A DNA stretch of 64,000 nucleotides from NCBI GenBank assembly GCA_964479535.1, contig CAYZMM010000001.1, positions 327,902-391,901 on the forward strand, read 5' to 3'. The position numbers and the translations under genes were made by a program. Source of the stretch: an uncultured Thermodesulfobacteriota bacterium (GTDB lineage Bacteria > Desulfobacterota > DSWW01). This document shows positions 1-46,164 of the stretch, one piece after another. A model generated the notes under the pieces. That model was not told the origin of the DNA. It was given only the letters and a program-made list of their open reading frames with translations, and searched no databases. Numbering within the stretch: position 1 is the first letter of the stretch; each line of letters begins with the position of its first letter.

Positions 1-1106
1 TGTGCCGACTGGGGCAGAAAGTACACCGCGTTCCCGTGCGGAAGGGCGAGGACGGGCACCGGATTACATCGAGGATGATCGAAGAGATCGTCTCCTTTCG
101 ACCCGACTTCTTTCTCACCATCAATCATCTCGGCTTCGACGAGGAGGGAATCCTCGCCTCCTTCTTCCAGTCCATCGAAATGCCGGTGGGCTCCTGGTTC
201 GTGGACAGTCCGAACCTGATCGTGAAGGCCTTCCGCGAAAACGTATCGCCTTACGTCACGCTCTTCCTCTGGGACAAGGGATACGTATCCGACATGGAGG
301 CCCTCGGGTTCGAATCGGTCTGCTACCTTCCGCTGGCCACGGACGAGACCCTGTTCAAGCCTTTGGGTCGAAACGGGAAGAAGGGGCGGGTCCGTCCCTG
401 CGAGGTGGGCTTCGTGGGAAACTCCATGGTGGAGCCGACAGCGAAGTGGATGGCCCGGTTGCCTCTCTCCCTGCACCCTCTGGTGGAGGCTCTTGCGGAG
501 GAATGCCTCCGGCGCCGGACCTCTTTCGACGATCTCGTAAAGACCCGGAGGGAAGAGGACCGGCTTCGCATCGATGCTCTCGAGCCCGCCGGCAGGGCGG
601 ACCTCGAGGCGGCGGTACTCTGGAAGACCACGCAGCGCTATCGACTGCAGTGCGTCAGGACGCTCACACCCTTCGACCTGAAGGTCCACGGGGACAAGGG
701 ATGGAAAACCCTGTTGGATCGGCCCGCCGCGCTGTCTCCACCGATCGACTACTACAGGGAACTTCCCGGGTTCTACAATCAGTGCGCGATCAGCTTCAAC
801 GCAACGAATCTTCAGATGGGTGCGGCCGTCAATCAGCGGGTCTTCGACGTGCCCGCTTGCGGGGCCTTCCTCCTGACCGACCATCAGGAGGCGTTGTGTG
901 AGGCCTTCGAACCGGGGCGAGAAGTGGTGGTCTTCCAGGACGTGTCCGAGATACCGGACCTCATCCGACACTATCTGAAGCATCCGGCGGAGCGAAAGGC
1001 GATCGGTGAGAGAGGGAGGCAGCGGGTGCTGCAGGAGCACACCTACAGACACCGGTTGGAACAGATCATCGCACGAATGCGTTCCCGCTATCGTTCCGGC
1101 CCTTGA
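1..1106 (+). CDS. CgeB-like glycosyltransferase (DUF3880/Glyco_trans_1_2-like C-terminal domain), 5' truncated by window edge
   Basis: ORF 36..1106 is open upstream to the window start. C-terminal motifs FNATNLQMG...VFDVPACGAFLLTDHQE...GREVVVFQDVSEIPDLIRHYLKHPAERKAIGERGRQRVLQEHTYRHRLEQII, paralogous to the C-terminus of the 4858..6624 protein. Confidence 0.65.
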   Translation, partial: CRLGQKVHRVPVRKGEDGHRITSRMIEEIVSFRPDFFLTINHLGFDEEGILASFFQSIEMPVGSWFVDSPNLIVKAFRENVSPYVTLFLWDKGYVSDMEALGFESVCYLPLATDETLFKPLGRNGKKGRVRPCEVGFVGNSMVEPTAKWMARLPLSLHPLVEALAEECLRRRTSFDDLVKTRREEDRLRIDALEPAGRADLEAAVLWKTTQRYRLQCVRTLTPFDLKVHGDKGWKTLLDRPAALSPPIDYYRELPGFYNQCAISFNATNLQMGAAVNQRVFDVPACGAFLLTDHQEALCEAFEPGREVVVFQDVSEIPDLIRHYLKHPAERKAIGERGRQRVLQEHTYRHRLEQIIARMRSRYRSGP

Positions 1107-1566
1107 AGGGCCCGTCCGATGCCGGCGTATCCAGACTTTCCGGCTCCTCTTCCGCCATGGGGGGAGCGTGGTCTCGCCGGGGCGTCCGGATCCTTCTCCA
1201 GGCTGCATCCAGCTGCCGGATGTGGTGTTCCTGCTTCAGGTAGTCGAGGTAGCGGTCGAGCGCCTCCTGGCTTTCCTTGTCCATGTCCCGGAAGGACAGA
1301 CCGTAGCGGACAGGACCCTGCCCCGGCCGATCCGGTCCGACCCGCTCCCAGACGATCGTGGCCCTTGCGACGGAGGCGTCCTGTCTCGCGGGCACAGGCA
1401 ATTCGAGGGACAGGATCGATCCGACGCGGCCCAGCGGTCGGGTGCTCTCCACAAGGCAGCCGGAATGCGAGATGTCCAGAATGCGGTAGGGAGACGCCCC
1501 CGGAGGACCGGAAGGCGCCAGGGGGCACGCGGGCAGCCGTTCTTGTTGTCGCTTGTCGGTGTTCAC
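1066..1566 (-). CDS. PilZ-domain protein (c-di-GMP receptor-like), single domain
   Basis: RQQER (RxxxR) followed by DISHSGCLVE (DxSxxG) motif, ~166 aa. Overlaps 3' end of the upstream plus-strand gene by ~40 nt; start uncertain. Confidence 0.55.
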   Translation of the reverse strand: MNTDKRQQERLPACPLAPSGPPGASPYRILDISHSGCLVESTRPLGRVGSILSLELPVPARQDASVARATIVWERVGPDRPGQGPVRYGLSFRDMDKESQEALDRYLDYLKQEHHIRQLDAAWRRIRTPRRDHAPPMAEEEPESLDTPASDGPFKGRNDSGNAFVR

Positions 1567-2853: not shown

Positions 2854-2880
2854 CGAAGAGGACCTGCCGCCGACGGGCCG

Positions 2881-3285
2881 TCAGGCGGCCTGCGACATGC
2901 CTTTGAGCAACCCGTCCCAGCCGCCCAGCTTCTCGGAAAACTCGTACTCCAGGATGTCGGCCAGGTGCACCCAGTCCTCGCTTTCCTGGGCACCTACGGC
3001 CATCTTCAACAGGTCGGCCATCTCCCGGGACTCCTGGTCGAGGGCCTCGATGGAGCCCTGTTGTCCCTCCTCGGTGAAGGGCCTGCATCTGCGCACGTCC
3101 TCGAGGAAGGAGACGAGTATGGCGAAGTCGTCCAGCACCTTGGAGAGCAGTTCGTTCCCTTCCTGGATCTCTCCGGACCGCAGGTGATGGGCCGACTCCA
3201 GAAGGAAGCCGGACAGGGTCGTACAGGCCTCGGCCGCCTCCTGCAAGGTCTTCAGAATGGTGTCCCGCAGTTTCACGTCATCCAT
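2881..3285 (-). CDS. hypothetical small acidic helical protein (ORF 2881..3354; likely start at internal Met MDDVKL)
   Basis: ORF in the operon between the secreted protein and the GT9 gene. The longer start would overlap the GT9 stop by 77 nt. Confidence 0.4.
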   Translation of the reverse strand: MDDVKLRDTILKTLQEAAEACTTLSGFLLESAHHLRSGEIQEGNELLSKVLDDFAILVSFLEDVRRCRPFTEEGQQGSIEALDQESREMADLLKMAVGAQESEDWVHLADILEYEFSEKLGGWDGLLKGMSQAA

Positions 3286-4879
3286 GAGATGTACCCTCCT
3301 TTCGGTTCGGACCGAATCCGAAACGGTGATGGATTTGCTCTGCAACGCCGCCATAGAGAGAGGAAGACTCCCGGAGGAAGACGAAGGGGTCGCGTACCGG
3401 CAATGCCTCTCTCCGCAGCAGGAGATAGTGTATGACGGGCGAGAGGTCTTCCGCTTCCAATGCCAGCCGCTTCATCTCCTGTTCCGTAGTCCCCAGGTTG
3501 CTGCGCAGCACCTCCACCTGGTCGGTTGCGGAGCCCTTGCCGTTCCCGGCGGCTCCGAGCCGGCGCATCAGCCCCGACGACCTTCGCAAGAGGGCTTCGA
3601 GGCGTTTCCAGCCAGGATCGTCGTTCAGCGGCGACGCCTCCGGCAACTCCTCGGGCCGGGAACGGGTTTCGAGGAGGGCGTGCCAGAACCCCTTGTACAC
3701 CGCCAGTCGTCGGTCTTCGAGGGTCGGGCTCTCCGTCGCAAAGGAGAGGCAGCCCTCCTCGTCGAAGCAGGCCCGGTAGCAGGCGACATCCGCCGGAAGG
3801 CCCGCCGGCACACCCGTCTCGCCGTTCATGAGCCCCAGGATCGCCCTGTATACGAATTCCGCACGCACCCGCTCTTTGCAGACCGGCTTCATGCAGGAGA
3901 CGTGAAAGGAGCAGGGCGCACAGGCCGTTCGGGCCTGAAACACGAGATGGCCTCTGCCGTAAGGCCCGGTCTCGCGGAAGAAGACCGGCCCGACGGAGAC
4001 CACGATAACGGGCGTCCCCACGGCAGCCGCCACGTGCTGCGTACCGGTATCGTTCGTCACCAGGACCCTGCAGTGCTCGAGGACGCCGCCGAGTTCTCCC
4101 ACGCCCGTTCTTCCGGCGAGGCTGATGGAACCCGGGATCCGGCCGCCGATCCGCTCGCAAAGGGCCGCCTCTGCCGCAACCCCGAACAACAGAACCCGCG
4201 CGTTCAGGCCGTGTTGGAGCGCCTGCCCCAGCCGCACGAACTCCCTTTCGCTCCAGCACTTCTCCTTCTGGCTCGCAGACACCTGGAACCCGACCAGGAG
4301 ATCCCGCTGCGGGTTCACGCCGGAACCCGCCAACAGGGCCTGTGCGTTTTCACGATCCTCTGAAGACAGGGACATGCGAAGCCGGCGGGGCCCACGTACG
4401 TCCATGGCGCGCAGCCATATGTCGACCAGATGGAACGGGTTCGCTCTGCGGTTGGACATCATGGCCACGAGATAGGCGGACCAAGGATCCACGGCCTGAA
4501 AGGACCCGTCGTCACCCAGCCACATCCCACGGCAGGCCTTGTGCGCGATCAGCGAGCAGAAGGAAGCGGCGGATCGGGAAGGGGTCAGGTTGAAGACGAG
4601 GTCGTACGGATCCTCCCCGTTGACGGACCGGACGAGCTCGGCAAGGCGACGATGGCCCTGGATGAGACCCTCTTTTCCCGAAAGGGTCTGAAGAAGGGAG
4701 TGGACCGGAAAGGGCACGACCGCGTCCACGTCGATCCTTTTCGCCACATTCAGGAAGGATTCGTTCAGAAGCAGGGAGATCCTGGCCTCGGGACGCGCCT
4801 CCCGCAGGGCCTGAATCAGCGGCGTCATCTGAAGGATGTCCCCCATGCGCATGAGGTTCACCAGGAGGAGATTCGGCAC
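3278..4879 (-). CDS. glycosyltransferase family 9 (ADP-heptose:LPS heptosyltransferase-like) with ~180-aa C-terminal extension
   Basis: N-terminal LLLVNLMRMGDILQMTPLIQALRE and TNDTGTQHVAAAVGTPVIVVSVGP, the GT9 signature. Confidence 0.75.
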   Translation of the reverse strand: MPNLLLVNLMRMGDILQMTPLIQALREARPEARISLLLNESFLNVAKRIDVDAVVPFPVHSLLQTLSGKEGLIQGHRRLAELVRSVNGEDPYDLVFNLTPSRSAASFCSLIAHKACRGMWLGDDGSFQAVDPWSAYLVAMMSNRRANPFHLVDIWLRAMDVRGPRRLRMSLSSEDRENAQALLAGSGVNPQRDLLVGFQVSASQKEKCWSEREFVRLGQALQHGLNARVLLFGVAAEAALCERIGGRIPGSISLAGRTGVGELGGVLEHCRVLVTNDTGTQHVAAAVGTPVIVVSVGPVFFRETGPYGRGHLVFQARTACAPCSFHVSCMKPVCKERVRAEFVYRAILGLMNGETGVPAGLPADVACYRACFDEEGCLSFATESPTLEDRRLAVYKGFWHALLETRSRPEELPEASPLNDDPGWKRLEALLRRSSGLMRRLGAAGNGKGSATDQVEVLRSNLGTTEQEMKRLALEAEDLSPVIHYLLLRREALPVRDPFVFLRESSSLYGGVAEQIHHRFGFGPNRKEGTSHG

Positions 4880-6624
4880 CCTGCTTCCTCCTTGAAGGCC
4901 ATCAGCGTGAGGAACACTCGATCCTCCCAGCAGAGCTGTTTCTTTTCACCGATCAACCGGACCACCTCCTCCAGCTCCGGAAAGGGGCCTGCGGCGAAAG
5001 GCGCAAGATACTCCCGAAGCTCAGGGGGACACGATGCAGCCTCCCCTCGGCCCCGCCCCTTCTCGCGGCTCCTCCCCTGGAACCCGTGTTCGAACAGCGT
5101 GCCGAGCAGCTCCTTCATGCGGAGCAGGTAGGTGTGCTCCGCCAGGACGCGCCTTCGCCCCCTTTCTGCAAAGGCGAGCCGCTCCTCCTCGCGGTCGAGG
5201 AAATGGTCGATCTTCTCCCTTGCGTCCTTCAGCCCCTCGAAGACCACGACCTCCCGGTCGTCGAAGACCTCCGGAAGCATGCTTCTCTTGTCCACCAGCT
5301 GAAAGGCCCCGCAGGCGGCGATTTCGAAGGCTCTGGGATTCACGAAATCGCCGTGCGGATCGATCGCCTCGTGGTGCGAGGAGGAGTGGACGTTCAGGTT
5401 GATGCGCGAGGCGTTGAAGATCTTCACGGTCTCCTCGGTGCTCACTCTTCTGCCGCCCTCCTGCACCACCTCCGCCAGGACCGCCGGCGATCCCCCCCAC
5501 TCGTTCCCCCAGACCTTCATGCGGGGCGAGGCGAGCCGCGCCAGGACGTTCCGGCGGTTCCGGTAGCCGGCGCCCACGAAGGAGACAGCGCTTCCGTACC
5601 GCTCCCTCTCCTCCTGCGACAGGAAGCAGGGCCTGTGGACCCGCGGCTGCGCCGCCAGCGGCAGGCACCTCACCAGCGGTGCGCCTGCGGCCTGAACAGC
5701 GTCCTGTGCCTCCCGTTGAATCACGAAGAAGGCGTCCGTTCTTGATGCGATTCGCTTCCAGTAGGGCATCCGCAGGAAATCCTCGACGAACCAGTAGGCC
5801 ACGGTCGTGCCGCGGTCCCGCATCCTGCTGAGGCTCTCTTCACCCACCGGGGCCTGGGCAAGTATGAGTGCCACGTCCGGAGAGAAGACCTCGGCCCGTC
5901 GCTCGACGAGCCGGGAGAGGAGCGTCTCCATGGGCCGAAGGAGGTCGTTCCCCTGATCCCAGTCCTGCAGCTCGTTGTACCCGGGGTGGAAGGCGGCCAG
6001 GTCCACGAAGGAAACGGTGTGACCCAGTTCTTCGAGGCCGTCCCGGACGAAGCAGGCGATCGGGTAGGACCCTCCGTACACCGGACCGACCACCAGCACG
6101 CGCAGGGACTCGGTCCCGTGGGCACGGTAGGAAGAAAGGGCCTCGAGGGTCTCCAGAAACCTGCCGTGGATCTGTCTCGACGGGGGATGGACGTACCAGT
6201 CTTCCCGGTCCAGCGGGATCTGCTCCGCCACCTCCGCCGGGGCGGCCTGCACGAGCAGGCGGGTCCTGTCCAGCACGTGGCCGAGGTCCCGGTCCTCCAG
6301 TACGGCCCGAAGCAACGCCGCGTCCGGCTCCACGACGACCAGGTCCTCTGCCCGCCCGACGTCGAGAAGCGACTCGAGGTGGTAGCCGTCGCCGAAGCCG
6401 ATGACCCACGGATGGAGGGACGGGTGTCCTGCGGTACACCGGGCCGCCTCCCTGCACGGGTCGAACTCCGAGTGGAGCAGCCTGCCCCGGTAACGGTGCA
6501 CAGGCAATCCCGTCCGGCCCATCCGGAGTTCCACTTCGGTGGGGCGATCGAGGCTCTCGATCAGGCGGGCCGCCTCAGGCTGCCGCCGCCTCAACACGGA
6601 AAGGTTCTTTTCCAGTAAGCGCAT
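4858..6624 (-). CDS. two-domain protein: N-terminal region of unknown function (possibly Maf/DUF115-like) fused to CgeB-like glycosyltransferase C-terminal domain
   Basis: C-terminus FNASRINLNVHSS...VNPRAFEIAACGAFQLVDKRSMLPEVFDDREVVVFEGLKDAREKIDHFLDREEERLAFAERGRRRVLAEHTYLLRMKELL, homologous to the 1..1106 C-terminus. 588 aa. Confidence 0.7.
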   Translation of the reverse strand: MRLLEKNLSVLRRRQPEAARLIESLDRPTEVELRMGRTGLPVHRYRGRLLHSEFDPCREAARCTAGHPSLHPWVIGFGDGYHLESLLDVGRAEDLVVVEPDAALLRAVLEDRDLGHVLDRTRLLVQAAPAEVAEQIPLDREDWYVHPPSRQIHGRFLETLEALSSYRAHGTESLRVLVVGPVYGGSYPIACFVRDGLEELGHTVSFVDLAAFHPGYNELQDWDQGNDLLRPMETLLSRLVERRAEVFSPDVALILAQAPVGEESLSRMRDRGTTVAYWFVEDFLRMPYWKRIASRTDAFFVIQREAQDAVQAAGAPLVRCLPLAAQPRVHRPCFLSQEERERYGSAVSFVGAGYRNRRNVLARLASPRMKVWGNEWGGSPAVLAEVVQEGGRRVSTEETVKIFNASRINLNVHSSSHHEAIDPHGDFVNPRAFEIAACGAFQLVDKRSMLPEVFDDREVVVFEGLKDAREKIDHFLDREEERLAFAERGRRRVLAEHTYLLRMKELLGTLFEHGFQGRSREKGRGRGEAASCPPELREYLAPFAAGPFPELEEVVRLIGEKKQLCWEDRVFLTLMAFKEEAGCRISSW

Positions 6625-7980
6625 CCCTCATCTCTCTCAGCTCTGCCCAGCCTCTCTGAAGTACGTCCTGAAGACGAAGCCGGTCCGGAACGGGCAGGGT
6701 ATCCGGAACAGCGGACCCGAGGTTCTCGCCGACCTCCATGAGCAGGGACCGGTCCACCCGGTAGTGATCCAGGAAGAGGCGCAGGGTCCCGGCAGGGGAC
6801 GGCATGCTTCCGTCGGCCTTCCCAAGGTATTCGCCGGCGCATGCCCGATAGAGAAAGCCGATGATGTCCTCCCGGCCGGCCTCCTTTCTCGTCAGGGGCC
6901 GATACCAGAGCCACTCCTCGGAGAAATCGGAAGCGAAGAGCCGGATCCCGGAACAGGGTTCCACCGGCTCGTCCTTTAAAAGACGCACAACCGTATCCGG
7001 ACGGACCGCCCTACGGCAGTCCTGCCCGTCACAGGAGTCGTCCTCCCTGCAGGGACCGCAGGAAGGCGTCGCCTGCAGCACGACGTGACCGTGGCCGTAG
7101 GGGCCCGTCTCGAACAGGTAGGCAGGGCCGAAAAAGAGGGCCAGACAGGGAACCCCCCGTCGAGCGGCCAGGTGCAGGGTGCCCGTGTCGGCGGAAAGCA
7201 GCCGGTCGCAGGCACCCAGCATCTCCAGGAGATCCTCCAGGGACGTCTTGCCCACCAGGTCGTGCAGCCGGGGCGACCCGGTCAGACGTACGATCCGTTC
7301 GGCCAGGGGCCTCTCCCGTTCCTCGCCGAACAGGATCACCTCGCAACCGACCTCATCCCGGAGTCGGCGGATCACCTCGATGAAGCTCTCCACTCCCCAT
7401 GTCCGTTTTTCACATCGGGTCGCGACCTGGATACCGAGGACGCTCCTTTCGGAAAGAGGGGCTCGCTCCTTCGCGCCGAGAAGCGCTGAAGGGATCCTGC
7501 GACGCGAGTGAAGCCGAAAGAAGTCGACCAGATGAATACGGTTCCAGCGCCTGTCCGATTGGAGCAGCCGGGAGACCAGATCCACCCAGGGGTCGCCGAA
7601 GGAGCCGTCCAGACCGTCCCGGAATCCCTGCACATGCGCCTTTCCACGAATCGTTTCCGTCACGGTGACAGGCAGCCTACCAAAGTTGAGGTTGATGATC
7701 CGCTCGAATCCCCGGGTGGAAAGAGGCCGCAGTTCCTCGGCCAAGTCCGTCCACAGGCCCGTCCAGGGTCTGCCTTCCCGGAACCCCCGCAGTGTTCTTT
7801 CCAGGTCCAGGGTATAGACCGCCTCGAGGGACGGGACACGGGCCCGGAGGAACGTCTCGAGCCTCTTGTCGACGAGGACCGAGACCCGCTGCCTCTCCGC
7901 CTCCACGAGGTCGTCGAGCAGATACAGGCTCTGGGTGAGATCACCCATCCGTGCGAGCTGGGAAACGAGTACACCGGACA
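6575..7980 (-). CDS. glycosyltransferase family 9 (heptosyltransferase-like), second paralog
   Basis: ARLSGVLVSQLARMGDLTQSLYLL and SADTGTLHLAARRGVPCLALFFGPAYLFETGPYGHGHV. ORF track extends to 8476 but the first ~165 aa are low-complexity. Likely TTG start at 7980 preceded by GGGGGAGG. Confidence 0.65.
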
Positions 7981-8079
7981 ACCTTGCACCTCCCCCTGCT
8001 CCGCGCGTTCGGAGCGGGGATCCGCCTCGAGGATTTCGGCCCGGGGCCGCGCTCTTGTCTTCACCTGGGAAGGGGAACA

Positions 8080-8094
8080 GCAAGTTCTGTACCA
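8080..8094 (-). promoter_or_regulatory. sigma-54 promoter (revcomp TGGTACAGAACTTGC) upstream of GT9 paralog 2
   Basis: GG-N10-GC spacing matches the TGGCAC-N5-TTGC consensus. Extended motif GAACAGCAA-N3-CTGTACCA shared with 10571..10593. Confidence 0.5.
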
Positions 8095-8345
8095 CCCCCT
8101 TGCGCGGCTCGATCGCGGTGGGAGGCGGGAGGTGCGACGCGCTCCGCCGCGTCCGACTGCAGGCGTACGGAAGTCGGTCCACATAAAAACTATAGAATGG
8201 TTTCAAATGCTTAGAACGAGAGGCGGTGCCTGTGGACGGTCTGGGCGCGGCGCGGTCTGCAAGGAGGCGGATGGGCAGAGGCGCGGGGAAAACCGTCAAG
8301 GAATTGGGGGCGCACGCCAAGGAACGTGTGGAACCGGACAGACCG

Positions 8346-10532
8346 TCAACGGCAGGAAAGCCTGTGGAGTCCCGCCTTCGCTTCTTCGTGCTCGGGCAGG
8401 AAGAGCAGCACCCGCTCGAGCCTCTGCTTCGCCTCGTCGAACCGTTCCCGTTCCGCGAGAAGCCGGGACGAAGCAAGGAGCAGGTCCACGTTCGCAGGGT
8501 GTGTGGACAGGCACCGGTCGATGACCGCGGACGCCCTCTCCTTCTGCTCCGCCGTAGCGGCGAGTTCGACGAGTTTTCCGGTCACGCTCGGGTCCGCACC
8601 GTTTCGAAGGAGGAGGGCTTCGCATAGCCGGAAGGCCTCGGAACGATTTCCTCCGGCTTCCAGACGGTCCGCCTCGGCGTACAGGAGGTCCCGCCTCCTT
8701 ACTCCCCGCACCAGATATTGAAAGACGAAGAACTCTCTGAGATCCTCCGGGCCGAGATCGTGAACCGTGATGCGCCCCAGCCGCAGGTCGGTGGTCCCTT
8801 CTTCCGGGAGTTCGGGGCATCTCCGGTCCACGTTCGCGCGAAACTCTGCGACCTCGAGACCACAGGATGCGAGGAGCCGCTCGATCTCCGACCATGTGAA
8901 GAACCTCACGTGATCGCGGTCCAGGAGCCCCTCGTCCTGGTAGGTCCAGTGTCCCTCGGCCAGGTGCTGCACGACCCCCCAGAACCGGACGTTCGGAATG
9001 CTCATGACCACGGAGCCGCACGGCTTCAGCCAGTTCAGGTACCGCTCCAGGACGGCCTTCGGGTCGCGAAGGTGCTCCAGCACGTCCGCGAATACGAGTA
9101 CGTCGAAGGTTCCCCTGTCCACAGGGGGCACCCACTCCCGGGCGTCCGCCTGGAAGACGCGATCCAGCCACCGTTTCGCTTCCTCACAGGCGTCGGGCTG
9201 GATCTCGACGCCCCAGATTTCCCCTGCCCGGAGATCCGCCCGGCCCTTCAGAAGGCGACCCAAGTGTCCCCCGCCGCACCCGATGTCCAGGATCCGCTTC
9301 GACCCCTCCGGGATCAGCGCCTCCAGTTCGGCCCGCTCTTGCTTGTAGTAGTCGGGAAGCCGCACCTGCGTCGTGTCACGGCCTGCGTCCTCCGGACCCG
9401 TCGCAACCAAGTCCCGCGAAGCCGTCCTCTGAACGCCTCCTCTCCGACGGCCCCCCTTCGCCTCGAGGCCCTGGATCGCGTCCAGGATCTTCTCTGCCCG
9501 GTGCCGGTAGGTGTGCCCCGCCAGCACTTCCCGCCGGCCCGCCGCTGCGATGGCCTCCCTCTCCTCCGGGTGCGTTGCCGCTTCGAGCACGGCGTTCCAA
9601 CGCTCGATGAACCTCCCCATGGGGAAGCGGTCGAGCGCGCATTCCCTCGATCTTCGGCCGATCCGGGTTGCCAGGGGCCGATCCTGCAGGAGCGTCTCCA
9701 GCCTGGCACGGAGCTCTGTTTCGTCTTGGCCCAGGTAACCGTTCCCCCCGTCCTCGATGGGGGAGGTTCGGTTGGCGATGGATACGACGGGCATCCCCGT
9801 TGCCATCGCCTCGAGCATGGCCAGGTTGTACCCGTCTTCGTAGGGCTCGAGGGTGGTGTTCAGATACGTTCGGTGACGCCGAAGGAATCCTCGGTACGCA
9901 TCCCAGTCGCCGGGTATCGTTGCCTGGGGAAGAGCCGCATTCAGACCGAGGATCGTAGACGGAAGCCCCCTGGTCACCCTCTCCTGTACCGAATGTCCGA
10001 GCATGATGTCCCGCTCTTTCAGCCCGTTTCCGACCCGCAGGATGGAAGCCTCTTCGCCGGAATACCCGTGGTAATCTTCCGGATCGATGCCGGGGAGGAT
10101 GACCTCACCGTGAAAGCCCCAGTCCCGCATCTTCCCCGGTGAAATGAAGACAAGGGTCAGGTTTCTCATCTTCTCGAACAGCACGGCCACCTGCCCGAGG
10201 TACTCGTTTCTGTCCACCGGTGCCGTGTTGAGCGCGATTTCCGTGGACAGCTTGTTGTGGAAAACCAGAATCTTGGGCGTCTCCGCATCCCGGACGGACA
10301 ACAGGTCTTGCAGGTTGTGGGCGACAATCCGGTCGTACTTTCCGGCGCCGAGCCCTTCCCTTCCCTCCTCCTCGCTGATGAGCCGGCAGTTGGTGGGAAC
10401 GGGCCGGATGGCACGAATCCAGCCCCGGATGCCCGCCTTCTCTCTCTCCACCACTTCAAAGTGATGGCCGGTCTTGGCCATCATGTGGATATAGGACTCG
10501 TGCCAGTTGAATGTAAGAACCCTCAGCGGCAT
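8346..10532 (-). CDS. tri-domain protein: GT4/GT1-type glycosyltransferase + class I SAM-dependent methyltransferase + C-terminal TPR repeats
   Basis: TLEPYEDGYNLAMLEAMATGMPVVS (GT4 E-x7-E region); ILDIGCGGGHLG (MTase motif I); C-terminal TPR-like helical repeats. 728 aa. Confidence 0.75.
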   Translation of the reverse strand: MPLRVLTFNWHESYIHMMAKTGHHFEVVEREKAGIRGWIRAIRPVPTNCRLISEEEGREGLGAGKYDRIVAHNLQDLLSVRDAETPKILVFHNKLSTEIALNTAPVDRNEYLGQVAVLFEKMRNLTLVFISPGKMRDWGFHGEVILPGIDPEDYHGYSGEEASILRVGNGLKERDIMLGHSVQERVTRGLPSTILGLNAALPQATIPGDWDAYRGFLRRHRTYLNTTLEPYEDGYNLAMLEAMATGMPVVSIANRTSPIEDGGNGYLGQDETELRARLETLLQDRPLATRIGRRSRECALDRFPMGRFIERWNAVLEAATHPEEREAIAAAGRREVLAGHTYRHRAEKILDAIQGLEAKGGRRRGGVQRTASRDLVATGPEDAGRDTTQVRLPDYYKQERAELEALIPEGSKRILDIGCGGGHLGRLLKGRADLRAGEIWGVEIQPDACEEAKRWLDRVFQADAREWVPPVDRGTFDVLVFADVLEHLRDPKAVLERYLNWLKPCGSVVMSIPNVRFWGVVQHLAEGHWTYQDEGLLDRDHVRFFTWSEIERLLASCGLEVAEFRANVDRRCPELPEEGTTDLRLGRITVHDLGPEDLREFFVFQYLVRGVRRRDLLYAEADRLEAGGNRSEAFRLCEALLLRNGADPSVTGKLVELAATAEQKERASAVIDRCLSTHPANVDLLLASSRLLAERERFDEAKQRLERVLLFLPEHEEAKAGLHRLSCR

Positions 10533-10578
10533 CCGCCGGTCCTCCTCGAGGGGAGTACGAATGTTCCCGTGATGAACA

Positions 10579-10593
10579 GCAAATCCTGTACCA
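10579..10593 (-). promoter_or_regulatory. sigma-54 promoter (revcomp TGGTACAGGATTTGC) upstream of the GT-MTase-TPR gene
   Basis: In the 64-bp gap after the fliT-like gene. Same extended motif as 8072..8094. Confidence 0.5.
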
Positions 10594-10596
10594 GGA

Positions 10597-10983
10597 TCAG
10601 ACGTGCCTCGAAACGCGTCCGGGCGGGGGTGTACGGTCGGACAGGCGGCTGCGCAGGAGTTTCTTCAGGGAGCGGACGGTCTTCAATTTGTCATTCGCTT
10701 CAGCCAGTTCCACCAAGAGAAGACATCCCAGTTCCCTGTCGAGTCGGTTGATCTTCGCGAGGATGGCCCGGGTGGGCCTGTGCCCCTTGTCAAGGGATTG
10801 AATGCCCTCCAGCAGTTCTTGACGCTTCTGCTGCAACGCCTGCACCGCTTCCAGGTCGCCCCGGGCCAGGCATGCGCGTTGCTCTTCCGCGATCTCCAGG
10901 ACTCCGGTGAGTGTTTCGCCGGCCTCGTCGAACCCGGTGGGACGCTTCACGGCGAGACCCCGTTCTCCACAAGGCTGTCCCAA
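10597..10983 (-). CDS. flagellar export chaperone-like protein (FliT/FlgN-like coiled-coil)
   Basis: Position downstream of fliS as in B. subtilis fliD-fliS-fliT. LEIAEEQRACLARGDLEAVQALQQKRQELLEGIQSL heptad pattern. Confidence 0.4.
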   Translation of the reverse strand: MGQPCGERGLAVKRPTGFDEAGETLTGVLEIAEEQRACLARGDLEAVQALQQKRQELLEGIQSLDKGHRPTRAILAKINRLDRELGCLLLVELAEANDKLKTVRSLKKLLRSRLSDRTPPPGRVSRHV

Positions 10984-11327
10984 CCCTCTTTCAATTCGCG
11001 CAGGACCCGCAAGGCCCCGTCCATCATGTCCGGATCCCGCCGAAGGTTCGCCTGGGTGAACGTGTGGATCACGTATCGATACAGGATCTCCAAACGTTCG
11101 GCGATTTCTCCGCCCCGCTCCGTGTCAAGGGAGTCCAGAAGCTCGGTAACGATGGCGGTCGCCTTGCTCAGGTAGATCCCTTTCTCGGCGAAGTTGCCCT
11201 TCCTCATTTCCTCCTGCGCACGTGAAGCGTTCGCAATGCAACCCTCGTAGCACATCACCACGATGCGAACCCGGTCCGCCGTGGTCACGTTCGTCTTCTG
11301 ATACCCCCTTGCCACGTTCAACTGCAT
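10947..11327 (-). CDS. fliS: flagellar export chaperone FliS
   Basis: IVVMCYEGCIANASRA...KATAIVTELLDSLDTERGGEIAERLEILYRYV typical FliS. Confidence 0.85.
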   Translation of the reverse strand: MQLNVARGYQKTNVTTADRVRIVVMCYEGCIANASRAQEEMRKGNFAEKGIYLSKATAIVTELLDSLDTERGGEIAERLEILYRYVIHTFTQANLRRDPDMMDGALRVLRELKEGWDSLVENGVSP

Positions 11328-11354
11328 GGGTTCTCCTCCCTATCGATAATCCCA

Positions 11355-12719
11355 TCAGGAATACAAAGCAGACAGGTTGGTGGACTGAACGGAAGCAATC
11401 AGATTCTCCAGGGCCGCAAAACGAGCCCTCAGTCGTTCCTCCATGCGTTCCAGAGCCGCCTCCTCCGCTTCGATCTTCGCGTTCAGCACCCGGACCCGGT
11501 CCTGCAGCCCGTCCATCCGTATAGCGAGATCTCCGTCGCCGGATCGGGTGGCGACACTGGCGAGCTGATAGAACTGTTCGGCAACCCCTTCGGTCGCGTC
11601 GCCCTTCACGAACAGGTTCGTCACGCCTTCCAGGTCCGCGTCGAGGGCGTCCTGAAGCCCGGCCACATCCAGCGACAGCGTCCCGTCACGATTCGTCGAA
11701 ATTCCGATCTGAGAAAGTGCCCGCATATCCGACGGGAGCCCGTCCACGCTCGTGGAGACGATCCCGCTCATGCGGCGCTCGATCGATCGAACCGTGCCTT
11801 CCGCAAAGAGCGGGTCTGCCTCGTTCTCTTCCGTGTCGTAGTTGCTCCGGTCGGATATGAAGTTGATCACGTCGTTGTAGCTGTCCACCAGTGCCTGGAT
11901 GTCCTCCTGGATCGCGTCCCGGTCCTCGCTTACCTGGAGCGTCACGGTTGTTGCAGGATCCGCCTTGTGAAGCGAAACGCTGACACCGGGGATCAGGTCC
12001 GATACGGTGTTGCTCGACCGGGAAACGGTGAGACCGTCCAGGACGATTTCCGCATCCTGGGGGGTCTGGAGGTGCAGTTCCGAGGAAAAAGTGCTGTCGT
12101 TCACCGGAAAGCCCAGGTCTGTGCCGTCCTGGGTGACGATGATCTTGTTGTCTGCGCCGGTCTCGTCACTCGAGAGAACGAGCTGATAAGGGTCCGTGTC
12201 GGATCCGTCGTTGACGATCACGGCGTGAATCCCGGCATCCAAGTCGTTGATGGCATTCTTGAATTCCGTCAGCGTCGTCGTGGCGTCCACGGCAACCGTG
12301 TACTCCGTTCCGGTGTCACCCACCTTGAAGGTGAAGGAACCATTGCCCGAAGCGACCGTGGCATCCGCTGCTGAGAGCCCCACCCCCGCTTTGAGCTTGT
12401 GTGCCAGGGCAAGCTGGTTGACCGTCATGCTGTAATTGCCGGTGGTGGCCGAAGAGGAAACGTTTGTAGTGACGATCGTCTCGTCGCTCACGGTCGTTTC
12501 CTTGCCGCCGAAGCTTGTGGACAGGCGCAGCGCATCCGCGGCCGACTCGAGTCCTTCCAGCTTGCTCGAGAGATCGCTGAAGGCGGCGTTCTTCGCTTCG
12601 TAGGTGCTCTTCTGCCTTTCCAGACGATTGACGGAGATTCGCTCCACCTGGAGCAGTTGCTGGATCAGGTTCTCGTAGTCGATGCCCGACGATACCCCGG
12701 AAACGGTCAGGGTTGCCAT
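11355..12719 (-). CDS. fliD: flagellar filament cap protein FliD (HAP2)
   Basis: N-terminal GVSSGIDYENLIQQLLQVERISVNRLERQKSTYEAKNAAFSDLSSKL and C-terminal coiled-coil. 454 aa. Confidence 0.9.
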   Translation of the reverse strand: MATLTVSGVSSGIDYENLIQQLLQVERISVNRLERQKSTYEAKNAAFSDLSSKLEGLESAADALRLSTSFGGKETTVSDETIVTTNVSSSATTGNYSMTVNQLALAHKLKAGVGLSAADATVASGNGSFTFKVGDTGTEYTVAVDATTTLTEFKNAINDLDAGIHAVIVNDGSDTDPYQLVLSSDETGADNKIIVTQDGTDLGFPVNDSTFSSELHLQTPQDAEIVLDGLTVSRSSNTVSDLIPGVSVSLHKADPATTVTLQVSEDRDAIQEDIQALVDSYNDVINFISDRSNYDTEENEADPLFAEGTVRSIERRMSGIVSTSVDGLPSDMRALSQIGISTNRDGTLSLDVAGLQDALDADLEGVTNLFVKGDATEGVAEQFYQLASVATRSGDGDLAIRMDGLQDRVRVLNAKIEAEEAALERMEERLRARFAALENLIASVQSTNLSALYS

Positions 12720-12958: not shown

Positions 12959-13801
12959 CTAGGACAACAGGGTCAAGGCCGACTGAGGCAGAATGTTCGC
13001 CTGGGCCAGCACCGCCGTACCCGCCTGCACGAGGATCTGGTTCTTCACGTAGATGGCGGTCTCCGCGGCGAAATCTGCATCCTCGATCCGCGAATTTGCG
13101 GCAGAGAAGTTCTCTGAAGCGGCGGCGAGGTTGGAAATCGTGTACTCCAGCCGGTTCTGAACCGCACCGATGTCGCCCCGTCGATCGGAGAGCACCGCGA
13201 TGGCGCTCGCGTCGATCACCGAAAGGGCCGACTGGGCAAGGGCCGCCGTGCTGATGCTGTCCGCACCGGTCGTGTTGAGACCCAGAGCAGCCGCGTCCGT
13301 GTCTTGTATGGAAACACTCAAACGGTCGTTGGCGGTGTTCTGGAATCCGACCTGGAAATTGACACCCGAACCGGAGATCGTCCCGTCCAGGAGTTTCTTG
13401 CCCGCAAACTCGGTCACGTCCGAGATCCGGTTGATCTCGCTCTTGAGGGCCAGATACTCGTCGTTCAGGTATCCGCGTTCGGTATCTCCGAGCACTTCGT
13501 TGGCGGCCTGTTCGGCCAGTTCCCGCATCCTCACGGTGATGTTGCTCATCTCGCCCAGCCCGCTTTCAGCGGTCTGCAGCAAGCTGACAGCATCGTTCGC
13601 GTTCCGCGATGCCTGGTTGATACTGCGAATCTGGGCCTTCAGGGTCGTCGAGAGGGCCAGGCCCGCAGCGTCATCCGCAGCACGGTTGATCCGCAGACCG
13701 GTCGAGAGCCGCTCGATCGATTTGGTCAGGGTGTTGTTCGTGTTGTTCAGGTTCTTCTGTGCAATCAATGATGCGATGTTCGTGTTGACGGTCAATGCCA
13801 T
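12959..13801 (-). CDS. fliC: flagellin (short, 280 aa, no hypervariable central domain)
   Basis: MALTVNTNIASLIAQKNLN...LSTGLRINRAADDAAGLA N-terminus and ...LAQANILPQSALTLLS C-terminus. Confidence 0.95.
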   Translation of the reverse strand: MALTVNTNIASLIAQKNLNNTNNTLTKSIERLSTGLRINRAADDAAGLALSTTLKAQIRSINQASRNANDAVSLLQTAESGLGEMSNITVRMRELAEQAANEVLGDTERGYLNDEYLALKSEINRISDVTEFAGKKLLDGTISGSGVNFQVGFQNTANDRLSVSIQDTDAAALGLNTTGADSISTAALAQSALSVIDASAIAVLSDRRGDIGAVQNRLEYTISNLAAASENFSAANSRIEDADFAAETAIYVKNQILVQAGTAVLAQANILPQSALTLLS

Positions 13802-13960: not shown

Positions 13961-13987
13961 CTATCGGTTCGTGACGGGAAAACTTTA
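13961..13987 (-). promoter_or_regulatory. sigma-28 (FliA) promoter of flagellin: TAAAGTTT-N11-ACCGATAG
   Basis: Revcomp of 13961..13987 = TAAAGTTTTCCCGTCACGAACCGATAG; matches TAAAGTTT-N11-GCCGATAA. Confidence 0.7.
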
Positions 13988-14016: not shown

Positions 14017-14454
14017 TCAGGGGGCCTTCAGAGGAATCTGCACGGTAGGGTGCTCCGAGTCCGTGATCACCTGGACGCCCTTTCGGGTCACCGGATCGAG
14101 CAGCAGCGGCGCCTGAACGTGTACGTGGAGGCTCCGGGTCGAACGATCTACTTGCAGAATCGTCAGGATCTCGAGCTCGCTCAGGTCCGGGCCGCTGGAG
14201 GAGGCACCGGTCGGGTGTGATTCCCACAACTTCAGTTCGAAAGAGGGGAGATAGGTCTTCGGCTCGGACACGAGGAAGGCCGTTTCCGGGTCATCCACGG
14301 CCTGGAGCCACTGGACGGTGTCCCCTTTTACGCTGTCCAGACGGGCGTATCGCTTCAGGTGTTCGAGACCGATCAACCCCCTTGGAAAGGAGAAGATCCT
14401 TTCCTCGGGAACATCGATCTTGCCGAACCGGGATGTTTCGATTTCAACGCTCAT
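14017..14454 (-). CDS. fliW: flagellar assembly factor FliW
   Basis: SRFGKIDVPEERIFSFPRGLIGLE...AFLVSEP typical FliW; adjacent to csrA. Confidence 0.85.
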   Translation of the reverse strand: MSVEIETSRFGKIDVPEERIFSFPRGLIGLEHLKRYARLDSVKGDTVQWLQAVDDPETAFLVSEPKTYLPSFELKLWESHPTGASSSGPDLSELEILTILQVDRSTRSLHVHVQAPLLLDPVTRKGVQVITDSEHPTVQIPLKAP

Positions 14455-14660
14455 AGGGACTCGACATCTTCGCTCTTGGACCGGGATGCCTGCAGGTTGA
14501 GCTTTCGGATCCGGTCGTAAAGCTCGTCTCGGTAGATTCCCTTTTCCTCCGGGGCCTTGACCCCGATCCGCACCTGCCCGTCTCGAACCTCCAGGACCTG
14601 AATCCGGATGTCATCCCCGATCCAGAGCCCCTCTCCCGACTTCCTTGTCAGAACGAGCAT
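14451..14660 (-). CDS. csrA: carbon storage regulator CsrA
   Basis: MLVLTRKSGEGLWIGDDIRIQVLEVRDGQVRIGVKAPEEKGIYRDELY. Confidence 0.9.
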   Translation of the reverse strand: MLVLTRKSGEGLWIGDDIRIQVLEVRDGQVRIGVKAPEEKGIYRDELYDRIRKLNLQASRSKSEDVESL

Positions 14661-22680: not shown

Positions 22681-22728
22681 TCCTGCTTTCTCCTTCCTTT
22701 CACGAGATAGGCTCATCCTGTTGCGTTA

Positions 22729-46091: not shown

Positions 46092-46164
46092 GGGTCTTCA
46101 TCCTTTCCCGGGTCGGCCGACACAACGGTTCGCGCCGGCTCCACTCCGCCGAGGTGTGCAATCA

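What the first reader, a model, noticed from the sequence alone, without database searches (positions are those of the whole stretch)
8346..10532. 728-aa tri-domain glycosyltransferase-methyltransferase-TPR protein next to the flagellin operon
A single polypeptide combines a GT4-type retaining glycosyltransferase C-domain (EDGYNLAMLEAMATGMPVV), a class I SAM methyltransferase (ILDIGCGGGHLG) and C-terminal TPR repeats, under its own sigma-54 promoter. This resembles bifunctional flagellin-modifying enzymes such as Listeria GmaR (GT+TPR), but with an added methylation module. It could make a methylated sugar on flagellin or couple glycosylation to protein-protein sensing.
Basis: partly seen in the sequence, partly recalled or inferred. 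Interest (0 to 1): 0.6.

Follow-up and report, generated by a model that had tools for sequence, protein, structure and literature searches.

The report
Flagellar sugar-adding, methylating enzyme, domain-loss variant
This is a real gene in a flagellar gene cluster encoding a sugar-transferase, a methyl-transferase and a protein-docking repeat in one chain; it most likely helps decorate the flagellar filament protein with a methylated sugar chain, which is a familiar kind of system although this particular enzyme family has never been studied.

Summary
ORF 8346-10532 (minus strand, 728 aa) encodes a GT4-like GT-B glycosyltransferase (res. 1-320), a class I SAM methyltransferase (394-612, full-length homolog of PDB 3cc8) and a seven-helix TPR (614-727). 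It lies directly after fliC-fliD-fliS-fliT and behind a sigma-54-type promoter.

New points:
1. The protein is an in-frame deletion derivative of a widespread four-domain family (GT4-like + CgeB-like GT + MT + TPR, about 900-1190 aa). Residues 322-351 are a relic of the lost second GT. A syntenic relative carries only MT+TPR (350 aa) at this position.
2. The gene travels with a conserved downstream set: a Maf-N/CgeB-like GT and GT9-like GTs.
3. Homologs in Nitrospiria and Nitrospinaceae carry sigma-28-type promoters, even where no flagellar gene lies within the 10-kb flanks.

Best reading: a cytoplasmic flagellar-regulon enzyme that helps build a methylated O-glycan on flagellin, with the TPR as docking module. 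No biochemistry exists for this family.

GmaR is only an architectural analogy, because it has a GT-A fold. GT+MT fusions and TPR-bearing flagellin GTs are already described, so this is a new variant of a known kind. Interest is moderate.

The parts
8346..10532 (-). Target gene, 728 aa: GT4-like glycosyltransferase + relic + SAM methyltransferase + TPR
   Evidence: ORF list and translation; Pfam/NCBIfam; 525+ homologs; AF2 model, mean pLDDT 76.6
9573..10532 (-). Residues 1-320: GT-B glycosyltransferase domain with invariant N-terminal LTFNWHE motif and D233-x7-E241 acid pair
   Evidence: Pfam Glyco_trans_1_4 above cut-off. pLDDT is mostly 85-95. Foldseek matches BshA, ManT 7qsg, TarM, HepE and TreT at E 1e-12 to 1e-9. 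Invariant columns in A1. The domain alone finds 192 50%-identity cluster representatives at E<=1e-30.
9480..9569 (-). Residues 322-351 (HPEEREAIAAAGRREVLAGHTYRHRAEKIL): relic of the C-terminal helix of a deleted CgeB-like (Glyco_trans_1_2) second glycosyltransferase. It lies inside the disordered linker 321-393.
   Evidence: Pfam Glyco_trans_1_2 profile positions 111-144 only. The segment aligns to residues 612-638 of the 1029-aa ortholog P0002. The HTYxxR motif sits at about residue 628 in long forms and at 340 here. pLDDT is below 50.
8697..9353 (-). Residues 394-612: class I SAM-dependent methyltransferase (Methyltransf_23), motif I DIGCGGG
   Evidence: Pfam E 1.7e-20; full-length match to PDB 3cc8 (BCE_1332) at E 2.7e-34 with the protein and 1e-55 with the profile; Foldseek top hit is 3cc8 at E 1.8e-16
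8352..8693 (-). Residues 614-727: TPR domain, seven helices
   Evidence: Pfam TPR_19 at 29.5 bits, above the cut-off of 25; helices 614-727 at pLDDT about 90
10578..10593 (-). Sigma-54-type -24/-12 element TGGTACAGGATTTGCT, 45 nt upstream of the ATG. The Shine-Dalgarno sequence GAGGAGG lies at 10541-10547.
   Evidence: 4 matches in the window against 0.04 expected; the same element lies upstream of the ortholog in L001, L003/L082, L007 and L026; sequence read directly
8079..8094 (-). Second sigma-54-type element, in the 360-nt spacer after the target stop, ahead of the GT9-like/CgeB-like/GT9 genes
   Evidence: conserved in L001 and L003/L082; spacer sequence
6575..7981 (-). GT9-like glycosyltransferase, 468 aa (TTG start at 7981; the 633-aa ORF 6575-8476 is over-extended)
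   Evidence: Pfam Glyco_transf_9; the 468-aa ortholog of L082 aligns from 7981 at 70% identity; PDB 1psw and 3tov
4858..6624 (-). 588-aa partner: Maf_flag10_N-like N-domain + DUF3880 + CgeB-like GT-B glycosyltransferase
   Evidence: Pfam; 1520+ homologs, most carrying PF20157; AF2 pLDDT 88.6, pTM 0.84; GT4-like fold; found downstream of target homologs in 57 of 65 loci
3278..4879 (-). GT9 glycosyltransferase, 533 aa
   Evidence: Pfam and NCBIfam heptosyltransferase-type hits; PDB 3tov at E 1.4e-18; found in 55 of 65 loci
12959..13801 (-). Flagellin, 280 aa (minimal D0/D1 type with a short Ser/Thr-bearing central segment). This is the presumed acceptor.
   Evidence: Pfam and NCBIfam; alignment A3
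13962..13987 (-). Sigma-28-type promoter TAAAGTTT-N-CCGATA ahead of flagellin
   Evidence: Regex scan
10597..12719 (-). fliD (11355-12719), fliS (10947-11327) and a fliT-like gene (10597-10983), immediately upstream of the target
   Evidence: Pfam and NCBIfam; synteny with L082
46228..48832 (-). PAS histidine kinase (47549-48832) and NtrC-type sigma-54 activator response regulator (46228-47580). This pair is the candidate activator of the sigma-54 promoters.
   Evidence: Pfam Sigma54_activat E 1.8e-69, Response_reg, HTH_8; HATPase_c and HisKA

Best explanation
The gene encodes a cytoplasmic enzyme of the flagellar regulon that takes part in building a methylated O-linked glycan on flagellin before export.

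Proposed mechanism:
- The N-terminal GT4-like GT-B domain transfers a sugar from a nucleotide-sugar donor, either to flagellin or to the growing flagellin glycan. The donor is unknown.
- The 3cc8-like class I methyltransferase uses SAM to methylate a sugar of that glycan.
- The C-terminal TPR docks the enzyme on flagellin or on the partner transferases.
- The enzyme works together with the downstream sigma-54-driven genes: a GT9-like GT, a Maf-N/CgeB-like GT and a GT9.
- In this genome the enzymes are transcribed from sigma-54 promoters, the class that also precedes fliF-side and rod genes. Flagellin itself has a sigma-28 promoter. The modifying machinery would therefore be in place before its substrate is made.

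Evolution: the protein is a domain-loss variant of a four-domain family. An in-frame deletion removed the internal CgeB-like transferase.

Shown: domain identities and folds, intact catalytic motifs, synteny, promoter motifs, and the deletion.
Inferred: flagellin as the target, sugar rather than protein methylation, and TPR docking.
For: Domains and folds:
- Pfam, AF2 and Foldseek agree on GT-B, methyltransferase and TPR.
- The catalytic motifs are invariant among 16 orthologs: D233-x7-E241, GCGxG 418-422, D483/E486/H487.

Position:
- The gene follows fliC-fliD-fliS-fliT directly. The glyco genes are followed by DUF8042, an unknown gene and a PilZ gene.

Synteny over 80 genome loci from Nitrospirota, Leptospirillia, Nitrospinota, Thermodesulfobacteriota, Acidobacteriota and others:
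- 57 of 65 loci have the Maf-N/CgeB-like gene downstream on the same strand.
- 55 of 65 have a GT9 gene downstream on the same strand.
- 27 of 53 have flagellin or FliD within 10 kb.

Regulation:
- A sigma-54 motif precedes the gene here and in its close orthologs.
- All four sigma-54 motifs of the window precede genes of the flagellar cluster, and a sigma-54 activator is encoded in the window.
- Across loci, 21 of 77 have a sigma-28-type motif within 300 nt upstream (about 1.5 expected), mostly 56-82 nt from the ATG. 5 of 77 have a sigma-54-type motif (0.2 expected).
- This includes Nitrospinaceae, where no flagellar gene lies within 10 kb. The Nitrospina core genome does encode flagella (PMC5029188).
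- In L033 and L034 the same motif precedes both flagellin and the homolog.

Partner: its N-domain matches Pfam Maf_flag10_N, a domain of flagellin glycosyltransferases.

Precedents:
- TPR confers flagellin binding in FlmG (PMC7591256) and in Maf-1 (bioRxiv 10.1101/2023.12.03.569772).
- C. difficile GT2 is a GT+MT fusion proposed to add and methylate rhamnose on flagellin (PMC5207246).
- GT41+MT fusions occur in enterobacterial flagellin islands (PMC4875605).

Sugar methylation: the methyltransferase is covalently fused to one or two glycosyltransferases in nearly all of the top 120 homologs, and 103 of them are longer than 760 aa. This favours a sugar as the methyl acceptor.
Against: - No member of this family, nor PDB 3cc8, has any biochemical or genetic characterisation.
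- No nucleotide-sugar biosynthesis genes lie in the cluster, so the donor sugar is unknown.
- About half of the loci with at least 5 kb of upstream flank (26 of 53) have no flagellin or FliD within 10 kb.
- In relative L083 the gene at this position is MT+TPR only. The TPR therefore stays with the methyltransferase rather than with the transferase, which fits direct protein methylation equally well.
- GT9 enzymes are classically LPS-core enzymes.
- The inter-domain geometry of the model is unreliable (pTM 0.47).
- Promoter calls are motif matches only.
Confidence: 0.58

Rival explanations
1. The conserved functional unit is MT+TPR acting as a flagellin protein methyltransferase. The TPR binds flagellin and the class I methyltransferase methylates side chains of the polypeptide, for example lysines. 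This would be functionally like Salmonella FliB but unrelated in sequence. The fused glycosyltransferase domain(s) would be optional add-ons.
For: - In the syntenic locus L083 the gene after fliT encodes only MT+TPR (P0125, 350 aa, 66% identical to residues 386-726). Other stand-alone MT+TPR forms exist.
- The TPR therefore segregates with the methyltransferase, and TPRs bind proteins.
- Flagellin methylation accompanies glycosylation in other bacteria, for example Aeromonas caviae (PMC9290775, title and abstract).
Against: - In nearly all of the top 120 homologs the methyltransferase is fused to glycosyltransferases.
- L083 keeps the other three transferase genes, so a glycan substrate is still available there.
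- No FliB-type family appears among the Pfam matches or the 25 NCBIfam matches shown.
- The one documented GT+MT fusion on flagellin is assigned to sugar methylation (PMC5207246).
Confidence: 0.17
2. The module is co-regulated with flagella but acts on another substrate. Candidates are another flagellar protein (cap, hook), a pilin or S-layer protein, or an envelope glycolipid or polysaccharide with a methyl cap. The last case would resemble LPS/O-antigen systems that combine GT4, GT9 and a terminating methyltransferase.
For: - GT9 neighbours resemble LPS heptosyltransferases.
- About half of the loci with at least 5 kb of upstream flank show no flagellin or FliD within 10 kb.
- In N. gracilis the three-gene module sits among respiratory and housekeeping genes.
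- Some stand-alone methyltransferase homologs are labelled 'O-antigen biosynthesis protein' by JGI.
Against: - Sigma-28- or sigma-54-type promoter motifs are enriched more than tenfold upstream of homologs, including the unlinked Nitrospinaceae copies.
- The gene sits tightly between fliT and PilZ in several lineages.
- The partner carries a Maf_flag10_N-type domain.
- No export, flippase or polymerase genes for a polysaccharide route were found among the genes called next to the module in L081, L082 and L083.
Confidence: 0.17
3. A GmaR-like dual-function protein: a transferase that also acts as a regulator through its TPR (anti-repressor or sensor of flagellar assembly).
For: Only the order of a transferase followed by a C-terminal TPR, and the location in a flagellar cluster.
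Against: - The fold is GT-B rather than the GT-A of GmaR (the GmaR fold is from my own knowledge).
- No MogR-like partner was noticed.
- The TPR was not detected at E<=1e-5 in several family members, for example P0068 and P0113.
Confidence: 0.04

Closest known systems
Clostridioides difficile type B flagellin GT2 (CDR20291_0242)
   Same: A single polypeptide encoded next to fliC that combines a glycosyltransferase with a SAM methyltransferase domain. It is proposed to add sugars to the flagellin glycan and to methylate them (PMC5207246).
   Different: Its transferase is GT2 (Pfam 00535, GT-A fold) and its methyltransferase is Pfam 08241 (PMC5207246), against GT4-like GT-B here. The methyltransferase here also scores against Pfam 08241 (Methyltransf_11, E 2e-12), but no direct sequence comparison was made. 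The paper reports no TPR. It is a Firmicute.
Caulobacter FlmG and Shewanella Maf-1 (TPR-bearing flagellin glycosyltransferases)
   Same: Modular enzymes in which a TPR domain binds flagellin and a separate catalytic domain glycosylates it. In FlmG the catalytic domain is of the GT-B superfamily (PMC7591256). In Maf-1 the TPR is C-terminal, as here.
   Different: FlmG has the TPR at the N-terminus and transfers pseudaminic acid. Maf-1 has the MAF_flag10 catalytic domain. Neither has a methyltransferase. No sequence homology was demonstrated here, and no nonulosonic-acid pathway genes are in this cluster.
Enterobacterial flagellin-glycosylation-island GT41 + AdoMet-methyltransferase fusion proteins
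   Same: A glycosyltransferase-methyltransferase fusion encoded in a flagellin glycosylation island. It is described only bioinformatically, in 194 strains (PMC4875605).
   Different: The transferase is of the GT41 (SPINDLY/OGT-type) family rather than GT4-like. The taxa differ.
Listeria GmaR
   Same: A flagellin glycosyltransferase with a C-terminal TPR. It is named as a bifunctional glycosyltransferase in PMC5207246.
   Different: From my own knowledge, GmaR is a GT2/GT-A O-GlcNAc transferase and an anti-repressor of MogR. Here the fold is GT-B, a methyltransferase is present, and there is no evidence of regulation.
PDB 3cc8, BCE_1332 of Bacillus cereus ATCC 10987 (putative methyltransferase)
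   Same: Full-length homolog of the methyltransferase domain (residues 394-610 against 16-225; E 2.7e-34). It includes the PNV...GxWxY...GLLD..H.RFFT and FQY segments.
   Different: It is a stand-alone 230-aa protein from structural genomics. No function is published in the searchable library.
Bacillus CgeB / YkvP-type 'spore maturation' glycosyltransferases (Pfam Glyco_trans_1_2 + DUF3880)
   Same: This is the second transferase of the ancestral four-domain form and of the 588-aa partner. These are surface-protein glycan contexts.
   Different: In the window protein only the last 30 residues or so survive, so no functional CgeB-like domain is present.

Membership tests
GT-B fold, GT4-like (Pfam Glycos_transf_1 clan) glycosyltransferase | Two Rossmann-like lobes (GT-B fold) | tested here: met
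   The AF2 model covers 1-320 at pLDDT about 85-95. Foldseek matches BshA, ManT, TarM, HepE and TreT, all at probability 1.00.
GT-B fold, GT4-like (Pfam Glycos_transf_1 clan) glycosyltransferase | C-terminal lobe scores above the curated Pfam cut-off | tested here: met
   Glyco_trans_1_4 scores 31.4 against a cut-off of 27. Glycos_transf_1 scores 24.0 against 26.4, just below.
GT-B fold, GT4-like (Pfam Glycos_transf_1 clan) glycosyltransferase | E-x7-E type acidic pair in the donor-binding lobe | tested here: inconclusive
   The sequence reads E232-D233-GYNLAML-E241, so it is D-x7-E (or E-x8-E). D233 and E241 are invariant in A1. The equivalence to the canonical first Glu is not established.
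GT-B fold, GT4-like (Pfam Glycos_transf_1 clan) glycosyltransferase | Retaining transferase activity with a defined nucleotide sugar | not testable with these tools
   Needs an enzyme assay.
Class I SAM-dependent methyltransferase (Methyltransf_23) | Pfam score above cut-off, motif I GxGxG and Rossmann-type fold | tested here: met
   73.9 bits against a cut-off of 27. DIGCGGG at 416-422 is invariant. The top structural and sequence hit is 3cc8.
TPR repeat domain | Pfam TPR score above cut-off and stacked helix pairs | tested here: met
   TPR_19 scores 29.5 against a cut-off of 25. Seven helices span 614-727 at pLDDT about 90.
CgeB-like glycosyltransferase (Glyco_trans_1_2 + DUF3880) | Complete Glyco_trans_1_2 domain | tested here: not met
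   For the 322-351 segment only profile positions 111-144 of 144 are matched (residues 318-351). Orthologs have the full domain. The window protein carries a relic.
GmaR-type flagellin O-GlcNAc transferase / anti-repressor | GT2 (GT-A) catalytic domain | tested here: not met
   There is no GT2 Pfam hit and the fold is GT-B. That GmaR is GT2 comes from my own knowledge.
GmaR-type flagellin O-GlcNAc transferase / anti-repressor | Binds the MogR repressor | not testable with these tools
   No MogR homolog was looked for specifically, and none was noticed.
Maf (MAF_flag10) flagellin nonulosonic-acid transferases | MAF_flag10 catalytic domain (PF01973) | tested here: not met
   The target has no such hit. 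Only the 588-aa neighbour has a marginal Maf_flag10_N hit, 24.4 bits against a cut-off of 23.5.
FlmG-type flagellin glycosyltransferase | N-terminal TPR followed by a C-terminal GT-B domain; homology to FlmG | not tested
   The domain order here is reversed (GT-B at the N-terminus, TPR at the C-terminus).
Sigma-54-dependent promoter | GG-N10-GC with TGGCAC-N5-TTGCW context at a suitable distance from the start codon | tested here: met
   TGGTACAGGATTTGCT lies 45 nt upstream of the ATG. The window has 4 matches against 0.04 expected. The element is conserved in orthologous loci. An activator is encoded in the window.
Sigma-54-dependent promoter | RpoN- and activator-dependent transcription start | not testable with these tools
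   Needs 5'-end mapping in wild type and an rpoN mutant.
Flagellin glycosylation island gene | Conserved linkage and co-regulation with flagellin genes | tested here: met
   synteny; promoters.
Flagellin glycosylation island gene | Flagellin carries a glycan that depends on the gene | not testable with these tools
   Needs mass spectrometry and genetics.

The most novel reading that the evidence does not exclude
MT+TPR is the invariant core of the locus and defines a new class of flagellin-directed methyltransferase, unrelated to FliB. The glycosyltransferase domains fused to it are gained and lost rapidly. At one syntenic position the protein is 1029 aa, 728 aa or 350 aa, while flagellin stays 93-95% identical. 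Closely related environmental bacteria, including relatives of nitrite oxidisers, would then display different flagellar surface chemistries. This would be a natural 'domain-deletion series' driven by phage or predator pressure.
Probability: 0.15. Interest if true: 0.6.

Novelty: new variant of a known kind. Interest (0 to 1): 0.35.

Why it matters
Flagellin glycosylation has been worked out almost entirely in pathogens: Campylobacter, Pseudomonas, Clostridioides, Listeria and Caulobacter-type models. This family is a so far unstudied, multi-phylum module, with more than 500 homologs in Nitrospirota, Nitrospinota, Thermodesulfobacteriota and Acidobacteriota. It appears to belong to the flagellar regulon even where it is not linked to flagellar genes.

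If the reading is right, three things follow:
- It gives a donor-independent marker for flagellar glycosylation in environmentally important, mostly uncultured lineages.
- It offers a compact GT-MT-TPR enzyme for glyco-engineering.
- It provides a natural series of domain-loss variants at one locus that could be used to assign each domain its step in the glycan.

It does not overturn any concept. TPR-guided flagellin transferases and GT-MT fusions are already known.

Tried and rejected
- Exact look-up of the window protein in the contig index gave nothing. Cluster look-ups gave no names or organism. The source organism stays unidentified. The nearest genomes are unclassified or Thermodesulfobacteriota MAGs.
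- Literature searches for 3CC8, BCE_1332 and CgeB+flagellin returned nothing useful.
- The context of one stand-alone homolog of the methyltransferase (P0160: ABC transporter, ECF sigma, kinase) said nothing about its substrate.
- GT9 neighbours were tested as possible TibC/BAHT-type protein heptosyltransferases. Their only PDB sequence matches are LPS-type GT9 enzymes (1psw, 3tov, 2gt1), so this idea is neither supported nor excluded.
- The fold search of the 588-aa partner was dominated by its GT4-like core and did not show whether its N-domain resembles Maf structurally.
- The Foldseek afdb50 library was unavailable.
- The sigma-70 promoter and terminator scan around the gene gave nothing above shuffles.
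- The Rfam scan of the window gave no hits.
- A GmaR-like regulatory role was considered and set aside for lack of any supporting feature.
Full report
**1. Observation**

The ORF 8346-10532 is real. It lies on the minus strand, starts with ATG and encodes 728 aa.

Pfam gives the following:
- Glyco_trans_1_4, residues 202-284, 31.4 bits against a cut-off of 27.
- Glycos_transf_1, 24.0 bits, just below its cut-off.
- Methyltransf_23, residues 396-562, E 1.7e-20.
- TPR_19, residues 673-720, 29.5 bits against a cut-off of 25.

NCBIfam gives only sub-threshold matches to named equivalogs, so the protein belongs to no curated family.

An AlphaFold2 model was built on 16 orthologs (mean pLDDT 76.6). 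It shows:
- a confident two-lobed alpha/beta domain at 1-320, which Foldseek matches to GT-B enzymes;
- a disordered linker at 321-393;
- a methyltransferase at 394-612;
- seven TPR helices at 614-727.

Foldseek against the PDB matches the first domain to GT4-type enzymes: BshA, the methylmannose-polysaccharide mannosyltransferase 7qsg, TarM, HepE and TreT. It matches the methyltransferase best to 3cc8.

By sequence, residues 394-610 are a full-length homolog of 3cc8. This is BCE_1332 of Bacillus cereus, an uncharacterised structural-genomics protein (E 2.7e-34 with the protein, 1e-55 with the profile).

**2. Surroundings**

The window is one large flagellar region on the minus strand. In order, the relevant genes are:
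- flgA, flgM, flgN, flgK, flgL, csrA, fliW;
- flagellin (12959-13801);
- fliD, fliS and a fliT-like gene;
- the target;
- a 360-nt spacer;
- a GT9-like gene, really 6575-7981 (the 633-aa ORF is over-extended);
- a 588-aa protein with Maf_flag10_N-like, DUF3880 and CgeB-like transferase domains (4858-6624);
- a second GT9 (3278-4879);
- DUF8042, an unknown gene and a PilZ gene.

Further along the window are flhA, a fliA-like sigma factor, flgE, fliK, fliF and a histidine kinase with an NtrC-type sigma-54 activator. No nucleotide-sugar biosynthesis genes were seen in the cluster.

**3. Promoters**

The sigma-54 pattern TGGYAC-N5-TTGCW occurs four times in the window against 0.04 expected. The four sites are:
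- 45 nt upstream of the target ATG (10578-10593);
- in the spacer ahead of the GT9-like gene (8079-8094);
- just upstream of a rod gene (22728-22743);
- downstream of the activator gene, on the fliF side (46164-46179).

The first two are conserved in orthologous loci. Sigma-28-type motifs (TAAAGTTT-N-CCGATA) occur in the window only before flagellin and before the flgM-flgN-flgK block.

In this genome, then, the modifying enzymes appear to belong to the sigma-54 class and flagellin to the sigma-28 class. This rests on motifs only.

**4. The family and the deletion**

The protein has more than 525 homologs at E<1e-5. Of the best 120, 103 are longer than 760 aa and only 16 are 501-760 aa.

The long forms have four parts:
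- the same N-terminal transferase, with the invariant LTFNWHE motif;
- a complete DUF3880 + Glyco_trans_1_2 (CgeB-like) transferase;
- the methyltransferase;
- usually a TPR.

Pairwise alignment with the syntenic 1029-aa ortholog P0002 shows the deletion. Window residues 1-320 match P0002 1-320. Window residues 322-727 match P0002 612-1028. So about 290 residues, the second transferase, are deleted in frame.

The segment HPEEREAIAAAGRREVLAGHTYRHRAEKIL (322-351) is the surviving last helix of that domain. This explains the odd Pfam hit to the last 34 positions of Glyco_trans_1_2.

In another syntenic locus (L083) the gene after fliT encodes only MT+TPR. It is 350 aa and 66% identical to residues 386-726.

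One chromosomal position thus holds 1029-, 728- or 350-aa versions in relatives whose flagellins are 93-95% identical. Other family members have two methyltransferase domains or a duplicated N-terminal transferase.

The N-terminal transferase domain alone finds 192 cluster representatives at E<=1e-30. They range from stand-alone proteins of about 320 aa to multidomain proteins of 2424 aa.

**5. Is it flagellar?**

A scan of species-representative genomes returned 80 loci. They come from Nitrospirota, Leptospirillia, Nitrospinota, Thermodesulfobacteriota, Acidobacteriota, Latescibacterota and others.

Synteny:
- Of 65 loci with at least 4 kb downstream, 57 have the 588-aa-type gene and 55 a GT9 gene downstream on the same strand.
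- Of 53 loci with at least 5 kb upstream, 27 have flagellin or FliD within 10 kb, usually directly upstream and co-oriented.

In Nitrospinaceae the three-gene module is unlinked to flagellar genes. In N. gracilis it lies among cytochrome bc, PGK and RNase E genes. Even so, ten otherwise poorly conserved upstream regions share invariant AAG ... CCG..AA blocks. Together they read TAAAG-N16-CCGAAAA, a sigma-28-type promoter.

Across all loci:
- 21 of 77 have such a motif within 300 nt upstream, mostly 56-82 nt from the ATG, against about 1.5 expected;
- 5 of 77 have a sigma-54-type motif against 0.2 expected.

In the Nitrospiria loci L033 and L034 the same motif precedes both flagellin and the homolog. 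The Nitrospina core genome encodes flagella although motility has not been observed (PMC5029188).

The partner's N-domain matches Pfam Maf_flag10_N, both here and in most of its 1520+ homologs. Its model is a GT4-like GT-B core with an extra N-terminal domain and a helical tail.

Taken together, the module looks like part of the flagellar regulon in several phyla.

**6. Mechanism proposed**

Shown:
- three intact catalytic or binding modules, with invariant motifs;
- flagellar linkage and promoter motifs.

Inferred:
- The enzyme acts in the cytoplasm on flagellin before export.
- The GT4-like domain adds a sugar, either initiating or extending the glycan. The donor is unknown.
- The methyltransferase methylates a sugar.
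- The TPR docks on flagellin or on partner transferases.
- The three downstream transferases supply the rest of the glycan.

Sugar methylation is preferred over protein methylation for two reasons. The methyltransferase is fused to transferases in nearly all top homologs. And the documented analogue, C. difficile GT2, is assigned to addition and methylation of rhamnose (PMC5207246).

The MT+TPR-only form keeps the protein-methylation rival alive.

One anecdotal hint concerns the flagellin of L083, whose enzyme lacks the transferase domain. Relative to the window it differs by loss of five Ser/Thr in residues 163-184: S163N, S165A, T178A, S182D and S184A. This could mark acceptor sites, but it is a single comparison.

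**7. Comparison with known systems**

- TPR-guided flagellin transferases are established. FlmG has an N-terminal TPR and a C-terminal GT-B domain (PMC7591256). Maf-1 has a C-terminal TPR that confers flagellin binding and site choice. GT2+TPR candidates exist in Clostridium (PMC13317340).
- GT+MT fusions in flagellin islands are documented in C. difficile and, as GT41+MT, in 194 enterobacterial strains.
Its GT2/GT-A catalytic domain (my own knowledge) is not what is found here.

What is new is the combination: an LTFNWHE GT4-like transferase, a 3cc8-like methyltransferase and a TPR. Also new are its conserved partnership with a Maf-N/CgeB-like GT and GT9 enzymes, its taxonomic range, and the domain-loss series. 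No member has been studied experimentally.

**8. Verdict**

This is a new variant of a known kind: a flagellin-glycan enzyme with a fused methyltransferase and a TPR. Interest is moderate at 0.35. It is a good target for glycobiology in environmental lineages but conceptually unsurprising.

Noticed in passing
window 7982-8345 (spacer) and ORF 6575-8476: The 633-aa ORF listed downstream of the target is over-extended. The GT9-like gene starts at TTG 7981 (468 aa, as in L082). That leaves a 360-nt non-coding spacer with an AT-rich patch (about 8170-8215) upstream of a second sigma-54-type element. The patch may be an enhancer or IHF region.
   Followed up: partly
L082 10001-13090; window 8346-10532; L083 10001-11053: Three versions of the gene (1029, 728 and 350 aa) occupy the same syntenic slot between fliT and the GT9-like gene. 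This is a stepwise loss of transferase domains.
   Followed up: yes
window 12959-13801 vs L083 6666-7508: The flagellins are 93% identical. The genome whose enzyme lacks transferase domains has lost five Ser/Thr in residues 163-184 (S163N, S165A, T178A, S182D, S184A). These may be acceptor sites, but this is a single comparison.
   Followed up: partly
window 22728-22743, 46164-46179, 46228-48832, 24865-25617: The other two sigma-54-type motifs precede a rod gene (flgF/G-like, 22000-22716) and the fliF side of the cluster. A PAS histidine kinase, an NtrC-type sigma-54 activator and a FliA-like sigma factor are encoded in the window. This suggests a two-tier sigma-54 then sigma-28 hierarchy.
   Followed up: partly
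window 1066-1566, 1792-2853, 2872-3285 (all -): A PilZ-domain protein, a conserved protein of about 327 aa with no known domain, and a DUF8042 protein follow the glycosyltransferase genes. The order is the same in L082 and L083. Their role is unknown; the PilZ protein may be a c-di-GMP flagellar brake.
   Followed up: no
window 3-1106 (+): This is the C-terminal part of another DUF3880 + Glyco_trans_1_2 (CgeB-like) protein, cut by the window edge. In L082 it is followed by a 1059-aa GT+TPR+CgeB-like protein. The glycosylation region therefore extends beyond the window.
   Followed up: partly
window 14454-14660 and 14017-14454 (-): A csrA-fliW pair lies between flgL and flagellin, the arrangement known from FliW-CsrA control of flagellin translation. 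CsrA is 96% identical to that of L082.
   Followed up: no
window 48783-50771 (-): A 662-aa protein rich in TPR repeats is encoded next to the sigma-54 two-component pair. Its function is unknown.
   Followed up: no
window 53625-58202 (+) vs 53853-58220 (-): A 1525-aa ORF on the plus strand overlaps three long minus-strand ORFs. It is probably a shadow ORF of GC-rich DNA. It was not examined.
   Followed up: no
homologs P0035, P0043, P0021: Some family members carry two methyltransferase motif-I copies, or two copies of the LTFNWHE transferase domain. The family shuffles its modules freely.
   Followed up: no
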